Below, in pieces: positions 4,529 to 62,775 of a stretch of DNA of 64,000 bases. The stretch comes from Escherichia coli (GTDB lineage: Bacteria > Pseudomonadota > Gammaproteobacteria > Enterobacterales > Enterobacteriaceae). The translations under genes and the position numbers were made by a program. The stretch lies in the NCBI RefSeq assembly GCF_041248615.1, contig NZ_CP158426.1, one strand, 5' to 3'. The first letter of the stretch is position 1, and every line of letters starts with the position of its first letter. Under the pieces are notes generated by a model. That model was given only the letters and a program-made list of their open reading frames with translations, had not been told where the DNA came from and ran no database searches.

Positions 4529-4606
4529 GCCGGATGCGGCGAAAACGCCTTATCCGGCCTACGGTTGATACGGTTTCCGTTGGCCGGATTAAGCCACATC
4601 CGGCCA
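4529..4606. repeat. REP / palindromic unit sequences downstream of ompL
   Basis: gccggatgcggcgaaaacgccttatccggcctac matches the REP consensus; a second degenerate palindrome follows. Confidence 0.7.
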
Positions 4607-14398: not shown

Positions 14399-14487
14399 GC
14401 CGGATGCGGCGTGAACGCCTTATCCGGTCTACAAAAGCAATATTTTCAACAGGTTTTGTAGGCCTGATAAGCGTAGCGCATCAGGCA
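14399..14487. repeat. BIME (two inverted REP units)
   Basis: gccggatgcggcgtgaacgccttatccggtctac and gtaggcctgataagcgtagcgcatcaggca. Confidence 0.75.
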
Positions 14488-16625: not shown

Positions 16626-16691
16626 AATGGTTCGTCTTTTAGCCGTTTTATTCAGTATAGATTTGCGGCGGAATCTAACAGAAAGCAAGCA

Positions 16692-16936
16692 AAGAAAAAA
16701 GGCGACAGATTACTCTGTCGCCTTTTTTCCTGACTCATAACCCTTAACGGGTCTTACAATCCTTGCAGGCCGCCAACACACCCTGTTTTTCCATTAGCCG
16801 GAACAATCCGTGTTGATTCCATTTCCGTTTAATTACGTCTCCGGACGTTTGTCTTCCTGACAATCCTCTGTCTTCGCCTCCTGGCGCTCCTGACCCTCAT
16901 CCTGAGTCATTGTTCCTGTTAGCGTCCTCGCTCTAT
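16692..16936 (-). ncRNA. csrC: CsrC small RNA (CsrA-sequestering)
   Basis: minus-strand 5' ATAGAGCGAGGACGC at 16936; multiple GGA motifs; terminator hairpin ggcgacagagtaatctgtcgcc plus T-run at 16693-16722; lies between yihI and engB as in K-12. Confidence 0.8.
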
Positions 16937-17206: not shown

Positions 17207-17839
17207 TTGACTAATTTGAATTATCAACAGACGCATTTTGTGATGAGTGCGCCTGATATTCGCCACCTACCTTCCGATACCGGAATTGAAGTGGCTTTTG
17301 CAGGCCGTTCCAACGCAGGTAAATCCAGCGCGCTGAACACGCTGACTAACCAGAAAAGCCTGGCGCGGACCTCAAAAACCCCAGGGCGCACCCAGCTTAT
17401 CAACCTGTTTGAAGTGGCTGACGGCAAGCGTCTGGTTGACCTGCCCGGCTATGGCTACGCGGAAGTCCCGGAAGAGATGAAGCGCAAATGGCAACGCGCG
17501 CTCGGCGAATACCTCGAAAAACGTCAGAGCCTGCAAGGTCTGGTGGTGCTAATGGATATTCGCCATCCGCTGAAAGATTTGGATCAGCAGATGATTGAGT
17601 GGGCGGTAGACAGCAATATCGCCGTGCTGGTGCTGCTGACCAAAGCGGACAAACTGGCAAGCGGCGCACGTAAAGCGCAATTGAATATGGTGCGTGAAGC
17701 GGTGCTGGCGTTTAACGGTGATGTGCAGGTTGAAACGTTCTCCTCACTGAAGAAACAAGGCGTGGACAAGCTGCGGCAGAAACTGGATACCTGGTTTAGC
17801 GAGATGCAGCCTGTAGAAGAAACGCAGGACGGCGAATAA
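17207..17839 (+). CDS. engB: ribosome biogenesis GTP-binding protein EngB (YihA)
   Basis: 210-aa ORF, TTG start at 17207; G1 motif GRSNAGKSS. Confidence 0.92.
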
Positions 17840-17860
17840 TTTTCTTGCCTTAATGCTTGT

Positions 17861-17940
17861 GCCGGATGTGGCGTATCCGGCCCGTAAATTCAATAGATTA
17901 CACTTCTACCGTTGGCCTGATAAACAGGGCGCATCAGGCA
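17861..17940. repeat. REP pair between engB and spf
   Basis: gccggatgtggcgtatccggc and cctgataaacagggcgcatcaggca. Confidence 0.65.
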
Positions 17941-17963
17941 TTACGGATCTTTTCTTTCGCCCA

Positions 17964-18073
17964 ATAAAAAACGCCCCAGTCATTACTGACTGGGGCGGCT
18001 AAAATATTCAGCCAAATCCGATTACGTGAAGTAAAAGGTCTGAAAGATAGAACATCTTACCTCTGTACCCTAC
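17964..18073 (-). ncRNA. spf: Spot 42 small RNA
   Basis: minus strand reads GTAGGGTACAGAGGTAAGATGTTCTATCTTTCAGACC...; terminator hairpin gccccagtcattactgactggggc plus U-run (17966-17996); immediately downstream of polA. Confidence 0.9.
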
Positions 18074-18220
18074 GCGACTAACTTTACTCTTTTTTGTTCA
18101 GTTCAGAAAGCATTTTTTGTAATTTTTTTTCAGTTGTTGCATAGGAATTTCTAATAGCCATCACAAAACGTGACAGCTTATGTTGCTTACTTACGAAAAA
18201 AGGGCATGTTCAGGCGAATC

Positions 18221-21007
18221 TTAGTGCGCCTGATCCCAGTTTTCGCCACTCCCCACTTCCACCAGCAACGGCACATCCAGACGGGTACAGTTTTCCATCA
18301 GTTGATGAATCTGCTTCGCGACGGCATCGACATCATCTTTATGAACTTCAAATACCAGTTCATCGTGTACCTGCATGATCATACGCACACGCGGTTGCTC
18401 AGCCTGTAGCCACGTATCAACGGCAATCATTGCCCGTTTGATAATGTCGGCGGCGGTTCCCTGCATTGGCGCGTTAATGGCTGCACGTTCAGCCGCTGCA
18501 CGACGAGCACCATTGCTGGATTTGATATCCGGCAGATACAGACGGCGTCCGTCCAGCGTTTCAACGTAGCCCTGCTCTTTCGCCTGAGCACGGGTGCGTT
18601 CCATATACTCCAGCACGCCAGGGTAGCGTTCGAAGTAAAGGTCCATGTACTTCTGCGCTTCTTTACGTGGAATGTTCAATTGCCGCGCCAGACCGAAAGC
18701 ACTCATGCCATAAATCAGACCAAAGTTGATCGCTTTCGCGCTACGGCGTTGCTCGCTGGTGACGGTTTCCAGTGGCAAACCAAACACTTCTGCCGCCGTT
18801 GCCCGGTGGATATCTTTTCCTTCCGCGAATGCGGTCAGCAAGCCTTTGTCACGCGAGAGATGCGCCATAATGCGCAGTTCAATCTGCGAGTAGTCCGCTG
18901 AGACAATCACATAATCCTCTGGCGCAATAAACGCCTGGCGGATACGACGACCTTCTTCGTTACGCACCGGAATGTTTTGCAGGTTAGGATCGGTTGACGA
19001 TAAACGTCCCGTTGCAGTTACTGCCTGGTGATAAGAGGTATGCACACGCCCGGTTTTCGGGTTGATCATCAGCGGCAGCTTGTCGGTGTAAGTCGATTTC
19101 AGCTTCGCCAGACCACGATACTCCAGAATCACTTTTGGCAACGGATAGTCCAGCGCCAGTTCTTCCAGTACCTCTTCCGACGTTGACGGCGCGCCACCTG
19201 GCGTTTTCTTCAGCGGTTTAATGCCCTGTTTTTCAAACAGAATGGTTTGTAACTGCTTGGTGGAAGAAAGGTTAAACTCCTCACCTGCAATTTCATGCGC
19301 TTTCTTTTCCAGCTCAGCCAGACGAAGAGTGAGCTCTTCAGAATGATTGTGCAGCACTTTCGGATCGATCTTCACACCGTTACGTTCAATGCGTGAAAGC
19401 ACCGGCACTAGCGGCATTTCGATATTCTCGAAGACGTTCAACGGCCCTTTGTGTTTTTGCAGATCCGGCCACATTTTCAGATGCAGCTGCAAGGTGACAT
19501 CTGCATCTTCGGCGGCGTAACGTCCGGCCTCTTCCAGGGCAATCTGGTTAAAGGTCAGTTGATTTTTACCTTTACCAGCAATCTCTTCAAAAGTGATGGT
19601 TTTGTGCTTCAACCAACGTTCCGCGAGGCTGTCCATATCGTGACGCCCGGCAACGCTATTGAGAATGTAGGACTCCAGCATGGTATCAAATGCAATCCCA
19701 CGCAGCTCAATGCCGTAATTCGCCAGAATACCGCGATCGTATTTCAGGTTTTGCCCAACCTTCAGCGCCTTTTCATCTTCCAGCAGCGGTTTTAGCAACT
19801 CGAGTGCACGCTCGCGAGAGATTTGATCGGGCGCATCAAGATAATCATGAGCAACCGGAATATATGCCGCTACGCCTGGCTCGATAGCAAAAGAAAGCCC
19901 GACCAGGTTAGCAGAGATGTTATCAAGGCTGTCGGTTTCGGTATCAAATGCAAATACCGGCGCTTTTTCCAGCTTCGCAATCCACGCTTTCAGTGTTTCT
20001 TCATCAAGGATGGTGACGTAGTTGTCATAAGAAATCACCGTTGCCGTCACCTCTGGCGCTTCGTCTGCAACACTGGTTTCCTGCGGCCTGGCTGCGGGTT
20101 TCGCCCCTTTAGCCTGTAACCATTTGCCCGCTTCGACATCAGCAGTCCAGCGTTTGAACTCATACTTTTTGAACAGCCCCAACAACTCTTCCGCCGCCGG
20201 TTGTTGCACTTCCAGTTGTTCACAGGTCAGCTCCAGTTCAACGTCGGTTTTAATCGTCGCCAGCTGGTATGAGAGATAAGCAACTTCTTTGTTTTGCTCG
20301 AGCTTCGCTGCCATTGTTTTCGCGCCACGGAAGCTCAACCCAGCAATTTTTTCTGGCTCGGCATATAGCGTATCCAGCCCGCCAAGACCTTGCAGCAATG
20401 CCTGCGCGGTTTTTTCACCGACGCCCGGTACGCCAGGGATGTTATCAGAGGAGTCACCCATCAGCGCCAGGAAGTCGATGATCAGTTCTGGCGGCACGCC
20501 GTACTTATTCACCACCTCTTCCGGGCCGAGGATGGTATTCGTCATGGTATTGATAAGCGTAATATTTGGCGTCACCAGCTGCGCCATATCTTTATCGCCA
20601 GTGCTGATCAGCACCGGACGCCCGGCTTTTTCGGCTTCCCGCGCCAGAGTACCGATAACGTCGTCCGCTTCTACGCCAGAAACCGCCAGCAGCGGCAGTC
20701 CCATCGCTTTAACCATCGCGTGTAAAGGTTCGATTTGTGCTCGCAGATCGTCCGGCATTGGCGGGCGATGTGATTTGTAATGTTCAAACAGTTCATCACG
20801 AAAGGTTTTTCCCTTGGCGTCAAATACCACCGCTGCATGCGTCGGTTTATATTGCATGATCAGACTGCGCAGCATGTTGAGGACACCATACATCGCACCG
20901 GTCGGCTCGCCTGCGCTGTTAGTCAGCGGGGGAAACGCGTGATATGCGCGATAAAGATAAGATGAACCATCTACAAGGATAAGTGGATTTTGGGGGATCT
21001 GAACCAT
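18221..21007 (-). CDS. polA: DNA polymerase I
   Basis: 928-aa ORF starting [25 protein letters not shown]; ends ...GENWDQAH. Confidence 0.97.
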
Positions 21008-41633: not shown

Positions 41634-41745
41634 TGCCGGATGCGGCGTGAACGCCTTATCCGGTCTACCGATCCGGCACCAATGTAGGCCTGATAAGACG
41701 CGCCAGCGTCGCATCAGGCATCGTGCACCAATTGCCGGATGCGAC
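41634..41745. repeat. BIME (multiple REP units) downstream of fadA
   Basis: tgccggatgcggcgtgaacgccttatccggtctac / gtaggcctgataagacgcgccagcgtcgcatcaggca / ttgccggatgcgac. Confidence 0.75.
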
Positions 41746-62722: not shown

Positions 62723-62752
62723 GTCGGATGCGGCGTAAACGCCTTATCCGAC
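62723..62752. repeat. REP unit between rhtB and rhtC
   Basis: gtcggatgcggcgtaaacgccttatccgac. Confidence 0.7.
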
Positions 62753-62775
62753 TTACTCTGATGACGCGTCTGGCA

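What the first reader, a model, noticed from the sequence alone, without database searches (positions are those of the whole stretch)
17840..18220. Spot 42 (spf) downstream of polA, separated from engB by a REP pair
spf is intact on the minus strand (17964-18073) with its terminator. Between the spf 3' end and the engB stop there are about 120 bp containing two REP-like palindromes (17861-17940). These may insulate the convergent engB and spf transcripts, and they are a region where strains can differ.
Basis: partly seen in the sequence, partly recalled or inferred. Interest (0 to 1): 0.25.

Follow-up and report, generated by a model that had tools for sequence, protein, structure and literature searches.

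The report
Spot 42 gene and decayed REP293
This is the well-known E. coli polA–spf–engB locus, and the two palindromes between the Spot 42 RNA gene and engB are the already catalogued repeat REP293, a worn-out immobile mosaic repeat present in nearly every E. coli, so the finding is correct but ordinary.

Summary
Spot 42 (spf) is intact on the minus strand (18073→17965) with its terminator and the 15-aa SpfP ORF. The 123–125 bp between it and the engB/yihA stop holds two REP-type palindromes (17861–17881, 17915–17939), far above chance.

The pair is already catalogued in K-12 as REP293. It is a decayed BIME:
- a y-type REP with a 9-nt internal deletion;
- a remnant of the long "L" linker with its IHF-like core (17886–17902);
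- an inverted z2-like REP.

Both GTAG/CTAC feet are mutated, so it is probably immobile.

It sits where most other Enterobacteriaceae carry a canonical engB intrinsic terminator hairpin. Only that terminator's T-tract survives in E. coli.

Of 5,426 complete E. coli genomes, 5,421 keep the spacer at the same length (95.5–100% identity). Three carry a 58-bp deletion between the two REP arms, and one lacks the whole region.

Published data do not support real insulation. The only mapped 3' end is Spot 42's own. Rho sites lie beyond REP293 on both strands, and dsRNA is captured inside spf.

Verdict: already known, low interest.

The parts
17207..17839 (+). engB/yihA CDS (210 aa, TTG start, TAA stop at 17837-17839)
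   Evidence: ORF list. K-12 annotation yihA 4050133-4050765. Translation used as query.
17861..17881 (+). REP 1: y-type REP remnant GCCGGATGTGGCGTATCCGGC. It has a 9-nt internal deletion and one substitution relative to the canonical y copies in the window. Its CTAC foot is replaced by CCGT (17882-17885).
   Evidence: Inverted repeat I3. Pattern count 3 vs 0.03 expected. Compared with the canonical copy at 4529-4558 and with alignment A1.
17882..17914 (+). Remnant of the BIME-1 'L' linker. The core AAATTCAATAGATTACA (17886-17902) carries the IHF-like TTCAAnnnnATTR motif. The linker is 10 bp shorter than in E. albertii and in canonical copies. The GTAG foot of REP 2 is mutated to GTTG (17911-17914).
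   Evidence: Single window match to the L core with 2 mismatches. Ungapped 54-nt alignment of L plus z REP to a BIME consensus, E 5e-6. The consensus was validated as a repeat with >=40 places per genome. Alignment to the real nagD-asnB BIME and to E. albertii.
17915..17939 (+). REP 2: z2-like REP GCCTGATAAACAGGGCGCATCAGGC, inverted relative to REP 1. It is 21/25 identical to the canonical z2 copy at 14462-14486; the four changes lie in the inner stem.
   Evidence: Inverted repeat I4. Pattern count 3 vs 0.00 expected..
17950..17965 (+). Conserved block TTTTCTTTCGCCCAAT. This is the T-tract and distal part of the ancestral engB intrinsic terminator. In E. coli it lies 10 nt from the nearest hairpin.
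   Evidence: Cross-species spacers. In Superficieibacter, Phytobacter, Pluralibacter and Pseudocitrobacter a GC hairpin abuts this tract. Enterobacter cloacae terminator.
17965..18073 (-). spf (Spot 42 sRNA, 109 nt). Terminator stem 17972-17997, U-tract 17966-17971.
   Evidence: Rfam. Terminator scan. Term-seq 3' end 4050007. Invariant in 8 diverse E. coli.
18008..18055 (-). spfP ORF inside Spot 42 (15 aa, MFYLSDLLLHVIGFG)
   Evidence: Translation. K-12 annotation b4837. RefSeq spfP annotations.
18074..18220 (-). polA-spf intergenic region with the spf promoter. A CRP-like half-site lies at 18150-18165.
   Evidence: Sequence. The CRP-like match has 2 mismatches and is not above chance on its own. 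1 variable site in 147 among 8 strains. CRP repression of spf is from my own knowledge of the literature and was not tested here.
18221..21007 (-). polA CDS (928 aa)
   Evidence: ORF list. Annotations.

Best explanation
The region is the standard E. coli polA - spf - engB(yihA) locus.

Shown: spf is an intact, invariant Spot 42 gene with its own strong intrinsic terminator and the embedded SpfP ORF.

Shown: the 'REP pair' is K-12's catalogued REP293. Anatomically it is a decayed BIME made of a truncated y REP, a shortened L-linker remnant with an IHF-like core, and an inverted z2-like REP. The two feet face each other across the linker, as in BIME-1.

Shown plus inferred: both GTAG/CTAC tetranucleotides are mutated. 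By the published requirements of the REP transposase TnpA_REP, the element should therefore be immobile.

Shown: it was present in the common ancestor of E. coli and E. albertii. It occupies the place where most other Enterobacteriaceae have a GC hairpin plus T-tract terminator for engB. Only that T-tract survives in E. coli.

Inferred mechanism: REP293 is now a largely passive 3'-UTR passenger of engB.
- engB transcription is not stopped by an intrinsic terminator. It runs through REP293 and the back of the spf terminator, and Rho ends it in the region antisense to spf.
- The REP hairpins can at most slow polymerase or 3' exonucleases.
- In the other direction, insulation is done by the Spot 42 terminator itself, with Rho mopping up read-through inside antisense engB.

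Shown: the two similar REP arms occasionally recombine or slip, giving a 58-bp deletion.
For: Identity of spf and SpfP.

REP identity:
- REP-specific stems are far above chance.
- The z copy is 21/25 identical to the canonical z2 copy, and the y copy carries a 9-nt deletion.
- L plus z align ungapped to a BIME consensus at E 5e-6. That consensus is itself present at >=40 places in every E. coli genome.
- Alignment with the real nagD-asnB BIME and with the fuller E. albertii spacer.
- REP293 coordinates.
- BIME-1 definition and the GTAG requirement: PMC3333891.

Ancestral terminator:
- Spacer sequences of 26 Enterobacteriaceae.
- 24 of 39 loci with EngB >=84% identity have a canonical engB-strand terminator. 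E. coli, E. albertii, five Citrobacter and Kluyvera have none. Tool confirmation in Enterobacter cloacae.
- No such site in the window.

Relaxed constraint:
- 15 variable sites in 125 bp of spacer, against 12/280 in engB, 0/109 in spf and 1/147 in the promoter region.
- Both stems have a change in E. albertii.
- The 58-bp deletion is tolerated in 3 genomes.

Rho and overlap:
- In-vitro Rho-binding regions on both strands just beyond REP293.
- Bicyclomycin-sensitive region at 4050432(+), antisense to yihA.
- The only Term-seq 3' end in the interval is Spot 42's.
- p19-captured dsRNA within spf.
Against: - The element is fixed at constant length in 5,421 of 5,426 genomes.
- None of the 15 variable sites in my 8-strain sample falls in the 28 outer-stem positions (my hypergeometric estimate is about 0.02). 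Some purifying selection or REP-to-REP gene conversion on the hairpins is therefore possible.
- The absence of an engB-strand Term-seq 3' end may only reflect low engB expression and calling thresholds.
- The Rho sites are from an in-vitro screen.
- The 800-nt upstream window of the bicyclomycin score includes Spot 42 itself, so the amount of read-through is not known.
- The dsRNA coordinates are in an older genome version, and my mapping of them is inferred.
Confidence: 0.7

Rival explanations
1. REP293 is a selected, functional insulator. Its hairpins would act in both directions as a (partly Rho-dependent) terminator and as a 3'-exonuclease block. This would keep engB and spf transcripts apart and stabilise engB mRNA.
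For: - Fixed in 5,421 of 5,426 genomes at the same length.
- Outer stems invariant in the 8-strain sample: 0 of 28 positions variable against 15 of 97 elsewhere in the spacer.
- General findings for REPs between convergent genes and for REP325.
- Rho-binding regions lie within 36-53 bp of REP293.
Against: - No hairpin-plus-U-tract on the engB strand.
- No engB-strand 3' end called in the spacer.
- dsRNA within spf implies antisense read-through.
- Highest SNP density of the locus.
- Inner stems destroyed.
- Stems altered in E. albertii.
- The deletion is tolerated.
- REP 1 starts 21 nt after the stop codon, outside the 15-nt class linked to translational effects (abstract of PMC12306157).
Confidence: 0.2
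2. The element works at the DNA level. As a BIME-1/RIP-like site it would bind IHF (and perhaps gyrase or Pol I), acting as a topological buffer where two convergent transcription units meet.
For: - The L-linker core keeps the same TTCAAnnnnATTR motif as canonical L linkers.
- The BIME-1 L linker frequently carries an IHF site, and REPs bind IHF, Pol I and gyrase (PMC3333891).
Against: - The linker has lost 10 bp relative to E. albertii and canonical copies.
- It has 2 core substitutions and further SNPs among strains (17902, 17903, 17906).
- The K-12 catalogue names it REP293. That REP293 is not one of the catalogue's IHF-site (RIP) elements is my own recollection of K-12 naming and was not checked.
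- I could not reach any IHF ChIP table.
- The three deletion strains lack the linker altogether.
Confidence: 0.07
3. The palindromes are chance inverted repeats, or the spacer encodes a small protein (the 49-aa ORF at 17853-18002, + strand).
For: 7-bp inverted repeats are individually common, and an ATG ORF of 49 aa spans the spacer.
Against: - The stems are the REP-specific heptamers and are far above chance.
- The linker and z REP align in register with the BIME consensus.
- The ORF is broken by the 10-bp length difference in E. albertii and by the 58-bp deletion, and it runs antisense through the spf terminator.
Confidence: 0.02

Closest known systems
Spot 42 sRNA (spf, Rfam RF00021) with the dual-function small protein SpfP
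   Same: - Full-length covariance-model match above the gathering score.
- Same terminator, same 15-aa ORF and same polA-spf-engB synteny as K-12 b3864/b4837.
- Sequence identical in 8 diverse E. coli.
   Different: Nothing. It is the gene itself.
REP293 of E. coli K-12 MG1655 (4050034-4050112)
   Same: Same position between yihA and spf, and same extent when mapped (window 17860-17938). The K-12 spacer differs from the window by 3 SNPs.
   Different: Nothing structural. The window is another strain's allele.
BIME-1 / IHF-site-bearing REP pairs (y REP - L linker - z1 REP), e.g. the nagD-asnB copy
   Same: - Two inverted REPs whose GTAG/CTAC feet face a long linker.
- The linker core AAATTCAATAnATTnCA is in the same register relative to the z REP.
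- Single copy at the locus (definition in PMC3333891).
   Different: - The y REP has lost 9 nt.
- The z REP has z2 length rather than z1, which makes it 'atypical' by the published scheme.
- The linker is 10 bp shorter.
- Both tetranucleotides are mutated.
- The inner stems are disrupted.
Canonical engB intrinsic terminator of other Enterobacteriaceae (e.g. Enterobacter cloacae GGGCGCGGCGATGACCGCGC + T8)
   Same: Same position directly after the engB stop and back-to-back with the spf terminator. The distal T-rich block TTTTCTTTCGCCCAAT is shared.
   Different: In Escherichia and Citrobacter the GC hairpin is gone and REP sequence stands in its place. The T-tract is no longer adjacent to a hairpin.
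REP325 (yjdM-yjdN), the model dual terminator/stabiliser REP
   Same: A REP array in a 3' UTR with Rho engagement nearby.
   Different: REP325 is a multi-hairpin array of well-preserved REPs between tandem genes. REP293 has two degraded hairpins between convergent genes, and no functional test exists for it.

Membership tests
Spot 42 RNA (RF00021) | Covariance-model score above the curated gathering threshold over the full model | tested here: met
   122.8 bits against a gathering score of 80, model positions 1-115, E 9e-25
Spot 42 RNA (RF00021) | Rho-independent terminator at the 3' end | tested here: met
   11-bp stem (8 GC) plus U6 at 17997-17966. Term-seq 3' end at the equivalent of 17965.
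Spot 42 RNA (RF00021) | Synteny: downstream of polA, convergent with engB/yihA | tested here: met
   The spf-engB half (engB convergent with spf) was found in 104 of the 120 species loci. The other 16 gave no EngB match, many because the stored DNA ends close to spf. polA was not checked in those loci.
Spot 42 RNA (RF00021) | Embedded 15-aa SpfP ORF | tested here: met
   MFYLSDLLLHVIGFG*, matching the position of the spfP annotation in K-12
REP (y / z2 types of E. coli) | Extragenic imperfect palindrome with the family-specific outer stems GCCGGAT/ATCCGGC (y) or GCCTGAT/ATCAGGC (z) | tested here: met
   Both outer stems are perfect. Shuffle expectation is 0.03 and 0.00.
REP (y / z2 types of E. 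coli) | Full-length 30-40 nt element with the inner stem preserved | tested here: not met
   The y copy is 21 nt (9-nt deletion). The z copy has 4 substitutions in the inner stem, 21/25 identical to the copy at 14462-14486.
REP (y / z2 types of E. coli) | Conserved GTAG (or its complement CTAC) tetranucleotide at the foot, required for TnpA_REP binding and cleavage | tested here: not met
   CCGT at 17882-17885 and GTTG at 17911-17914. Requirement as stated in PMC3333891.
BIME-1 | One y and one z1 REP in inverse orientation | tested here: inconclusive
   The orientation is inverse and a y REP is present. The z copy has z2 length (25 nt between and including the outer stems), so by the published scheme this would be an 'atypical' y-L-z2 BIME.
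BIME-1 | Long, conserved L linker between the two REPs | tested here: met
   L core matches at 15 of 17 positions. Ungapped alignment of L plus z at E 5e-6. E. albertii keeps the 10 bp that E. coli lacks. The linker is degraded but recognisable.
BIME-1 | IHF binding to the L linker | not testable with these tools
   The motif TTCAAtagaTTA is present. No ChIP table could be read.
Intrinsic (Rho-independent) terminator for engB | GC-rich hairpin immediately followed by a U-tract on the engB strand | tested here: not met
   None in the window. Present in 24 of 39 related loci.
Bidirectional intrinsic terminator (spf hairpin serving engB too) | Hairpin flanked by an A-tract upstream and a U-tract downstream, so that both strands read hairpin plus U-tract | tested here: not met
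   On the + strand the hairpin 17972-17997 is followed by GCTAAAATATTC, and the scan found no + strand site.

The most novel reading that the evidence does not exclude
Replacement of engB's intrinsic terminator by a BIME in the Escherichia/Citrobacter lineage made engB read-through a lineage-specific antisense input to Spot 42. engB transcripts would run across the spf terminator, pair with Spot 42, and trigger RNase III cleavage before Rho stops them. Expression of a ribosome-assembly GTPase would then be coupled to the level of a catabolite-repression sRNA in E. coli, but not in Enterobacter or Kosakonia, which keep the terminator.
Probability: 0.1. Interest if true: 0.45.

Novelty: already known. 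Interest (0 to 1): 0.1.

Why it matters
It matters little. spf, SpfP and REP293 are all catalogued in K-12, and the spacer is fixed core DNA.

The modest additions are these:
- REP293 is a fossil y-L-z BIME rather than two unrelated REPs.
- It replaced an ancestral engB terminator.
- Its two arms recurrently delete 58 bp.

Together with published Rho and dsRNA data, these points give a small, testable case of how REP insertion can convert intrinsic termination of a convergent pair into Rho-dependent, overlapping termination.

Tried and rejected
1. K-12 RefSeq annotation as a check for REPs. The copy served by the tool shows no repeat_region feature anywhere in 50 kb, not even at canonical REPs. 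Its silence is therefore uninformative. REP293 was recovered instead from a preprint's supplementary table.
2. IHF ChIP evidence. No supplementary tables are held for PMC3333857, and PMC8407004 has no hit.
3. engB 3'-end data.
   - No supplements are held for Dar & Sorek 2018.
   - SMRT-Cappable-seq tables have no yihA or spf entry.
   - The paper on bidirectional terminators is not in the library.
4. A compound hairpin CCGTAA...TTACGG (17882-17887 / 17941-17946) ending 3 nt before the T-tract, considered as a cryptic engB terminator. I rejected it: it encloses 53 nt, is broken in O157 (17884 G>A) and in E. albertii, and shows no compensatory change.
5. The 49-aa ORF at 17853-18002. Rejected because it is frameshifted in relatives.
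6. CRP consensus scan. One 2-mismatch site lies in the spf promoter region, but the count across the window equals chance, so it adds nothing beyond the literature.
The date of the insertion is therefore bounded only by E. albertii and Citrobacter.

Full report
**1. What is there**

The window is E. coli. A 531-bp query across the finding is 100% identical to NZ_OW967178.1, and 5,424 of 5,426 complete genomes hold a place covering at least 80% of the query. It is reversed relative to K-12.

- engB/yihA is at 17207-17839 (+) and polA at 21007->18221 (-).
- Spot 42 matches Rfam RF00021 on the minus strand at 122.8 bits against a gathering score of 80.
- The Spot 42 terminator is an 11-bp stem at 17997-17972 followed by U6.
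- The 5' end GUAGGG is at 18073. The published Term-seq 3' end, K-12 4050007, maps to 17965.
- The embedded SpfP ORF is intact (K-12 b4837).
- The spacer to the engB stop is 125 bp, or 123 bp by the K-12 annotation.

**2. The palindromes are REPs, above chance, and already catalogued**

The two inverted repeats are GCCGGAT/ATCCGGC (17861-17881) and GCCTGAT/ATCAGGC (17915-17939). These are the family-specific outer stems of E. coli y and z REPs. Each pattern occurs three times in the window against 0.03 and 0.00 expected from shuffles, and the other copies are canonical REPs.

A supplementary table of a 2026 preprint lists K-12 REP293 at 4050034-4050112, classed 'Convergent, yihA | spf'. That maps to window 17860-17938. 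The K-12 record served by the tool lists no repeat features at all, so its silence says nothing.

**3. Anatomy: a decayed BIME, not two independent REPs**

- **REP 1** is a y REP that has lost 9 internal nucleotides. Compare GCCGGATGTGGCG-TATCCGGC with GCCGGATGCGGCGAAAACGCCTTATCCGGC at 4529-4558.
- **REP 2** has the length of a z2 REP. It is 21/25 identical to the canonical copy at 14462-14486, and all four changes lie in the inner stem.
- **Orientation:** the two are inverted, with their feet facing each other.
- **Linker:** the 33 bp between them contain AAATTCAATAGATTACA. This is the only window match to the core of the BIME-1 'L' linker, with 2 mismatches.

I wrote a 98-nt y-L-z consensus from memory and then validated it. 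It matches E. coli genomes at 97-98% over its full length, at 40 or more places per genome. Its best copy is the nagD-asnB intergenic BIME. This consensus aligns ungapped from the L core through the z REP to 17886-17939 (E 5e-6 within the window).

E. albertii has a 136-bp spacer that keeps 10 further linker bases (CCCATAAAATCATGCAAATTTAATAAATTACA...). It aligns along the whole linker of the real BIME. E. coli has therefore suffered a 10-bp deletion in L.

According to PMC3333891:
- BIME-1 is y plus z1 with a conserved long L linker that often carries an IHF site.
- Combinations with z2 are called atypical.
- The GTAG tetranucleotide is required for binding and cleavage by TnpA_REP.

Here the two tetranucleotides read CCGT and GTTG. 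I infer that the element can no longer be mobilised.

**4. Evolutionary context**

A scan of one genome per species with a Spot 42 core returned 120 loci. A convergent engB was found downstream of spf in 104 of them, across Enterobacterales, Vibrionales and Aeromonadales. In the other 16 there was no EngB match, many because the stored DNA ends close to spf.

- **Most Enterobacteriaceae** have a 40-57 bp spacer. It consists of a GC hairpin plus T-tract in the engB direction, back-to-back with the spf terminator.
- **Terminator counts:** my scan finds such a terminator in 24 of 39 loci with EngB >=84% identity. The tool confirms it in Enterobacter cloacae.
- **No terminator:** E. coli, E. albertii, five Citrobacter and Kluyvera have none.
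- **Citrobacter** carries one full y REP at the same place. Kluyvera carries a different palindrome.
- **Shared T-tract:** the block TTTTCTTTCGCCCAAT (17950-17965) is shared. In several genera it directly abuts the hairpin, so it is the T-tract of the ancestral engB terminator. In E. coli it is stranded 10 nt from REP 2.

I infer that a REP/BIME replaced the terminator hairpin before the E. coli / E. albertii split.

**5. Variation within E. coli**

- **Conservation of architecture:** a 156-bp query over the spacer finds 5,421 of 5,426 genomes at 80% or more coverage, and identity is 95.5-100%. Every listed full-coverage hit spans the same 156 bp.
- **SNP density among 8 sequences picked across that range:** spacer 15 variable sites in 125 bp; last 280 bp of engB 12; spf 0 of 109; spf promoter region 1 of 147. 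The spacer is the least constrained part of the locus.
- **Stems:** none of the 15 variable sites falls in the 28 outer-stem positions. My hypergeometric estimate is about 0.02. This is a weak hint of constraint or of gene conversion on the hairpins. E. albertii has one change in each stem.
- **58-bp deletion:** three genomes (2012C-4502, JNE23-011, JNE112863) carry a clean deletion joining the 5' arm of REP 1 to the 3' arm of REP 2.
- **A similar but independent event:** a divergent 'E. coli' species representative (L114) has a 68-bp spacer with one REP and a slightly different junction. This looks like an independent deletion of the same kind.
- **Loss of the whole region:** strain ST2747 lacks window 17797-18251, including spf. 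Its record is full of frameshifts, so this may be an assembly fault.

**6. Does it insulate?**

*Sequence evidence*
- There is no hairpin-plus-U-tract on the engB strand.
- The spf hairpin is not bidirectional. On the + strand it is followed by GCTAAAAT.

*Published data*
- In Adams et al. 2021, the only 3' end between K-12 4,049,800 and 4,050,199 is Spot 42's, at 4050007.
- The same study reports a bicyclomycin-sensitive Rho region peaking at 4050432 on the spf strand, antisense to yihA (score 2.5, p 4e-9).
- The preprint's table of in-vitro Rho-binding regions places one at 4049844-4049998 on the engB strand, antisense to spf and 36 bp from REP293. It places another at 4050164-4050279 on the spf strand, antisense to yihA and 52 bp from REP293.
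- Huang et al. 2020 captured abundant RNase III-type dsRNA within spf and concluded that an overlapping antisense transcript exists.

*Reading of these data*

Together these fit a picture in which transcripts from both sides pass REP293 and are ended by Rho beyond it. Spot 42's own terminator does most of the work in its direction. This is inference, with these caveats:
- The Rho sites are from an in-vitro screen.
- The bicyclomycin score's upstream window contains Spot 42 itself.
- engB may be too weakly expressed for its 3' end to be called.
- I mapped the dsRNA coordinates from an older genome version.

General work on REPs between convergent genes, and on REP325 as a dual terminator/stabiliser, keeps a modest 3'-UTR role possible. 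REP 1 begins 21 nt after the stop codon, outside the 15-nt class linked to translational effects.

**7. Verdict**

The identification is right. The functional speculation is not supported by the data I could reach, and the 'strains differ' expectation is met only by SNPs and a very rare deletion.

The feature is already known (spf, spfP, REP293). What this analysis adds is small: the BIME anatomy, the replacement of an ancestral terminator, and the recurrent 58-bp deletion. Interest is low.

Noticed in passing
L124 (NZ_CP007394.1, E. coli ST2747), equivalent to window 17797-18251: A 455-bp deletion fuses the 3' ends of engB and polA. It removes the REP293 spacer, spf and the spf promoter. The record has many frameshifted genes, so this may be an assembly fault rather than a natural strain lacking Spot 42.
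   Followed up: partly
L114 (NZ_JAATUR010000054.1, labelled E. coli SCPM-O-B-8794), spacer between engB and spf: The spacer is 68 bp with a single perfect REP-like palindrome, GCCGGATATCGCGTATCCGGC. A 5-bp hairpin (ATCCG/CGGAT) abuts the T-tract. Flanking DNA is about 10% diverged from E. coli, so this is probably a cryptic Escherichia clade. It looks like an independent REP-to-REP deletion.
   Followed up: partly
window 17838 (locus L126, strain EC21): The engB stop codon is TGA instead of TAA in strain EC21.
   Followed up: no
window 14399-14486, 41635-41719, 4529-4604, 62725-62756: Well-preserved REP/BIME copies elsewhere in the window: y plus z2 downstream of hemN, y plus z1 at about 41.6 kb, y plus a truncated REP at 4.5 kb, and a single y at 62.7 kb. 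They were used here as internal references.
   Followed up: partly
window 16683-16936 (-): CsrC sRNA matches Rfam RF00084 at 277.9 bits, just upstream of engB, as in K-12.
   Followed up: no
L026, L106 (Pseudescherichia), L115 (Enterobacter sp. ENT03): The engB stop codon lies 0-6 bp from the spf terminator T-run. In these species the two genes have no separate spacer, and the spf hairpin may have to serve both.
   Followed up: no
Vibrionales and Aeromonadales loci (e.g. L003, L016, L082, L087, L093): The spf-engB spacer is 370 to about 1,800 bp there, long enough to hold another gene or sRNA. Its content was not examined.
   Followed up: no
window 18210-18233: A 7-bp inverted repeat (TCAGGCG/CGCCTGA) brackets the polA stop codon. 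On the minus strand it is followed, 8 nt later, by a T6 run. It was not called as a terminator by the scan.
   Followed up: no
L055 (Kluyvera genomosp. 1) spacer: The spacer is 116 bp with a different GC-rich palindrome (CCCGGA...TCCGGG type) in place of the engB terminator. This suggests independent colonisation of the same site by another repeat family.
   Followed up: no
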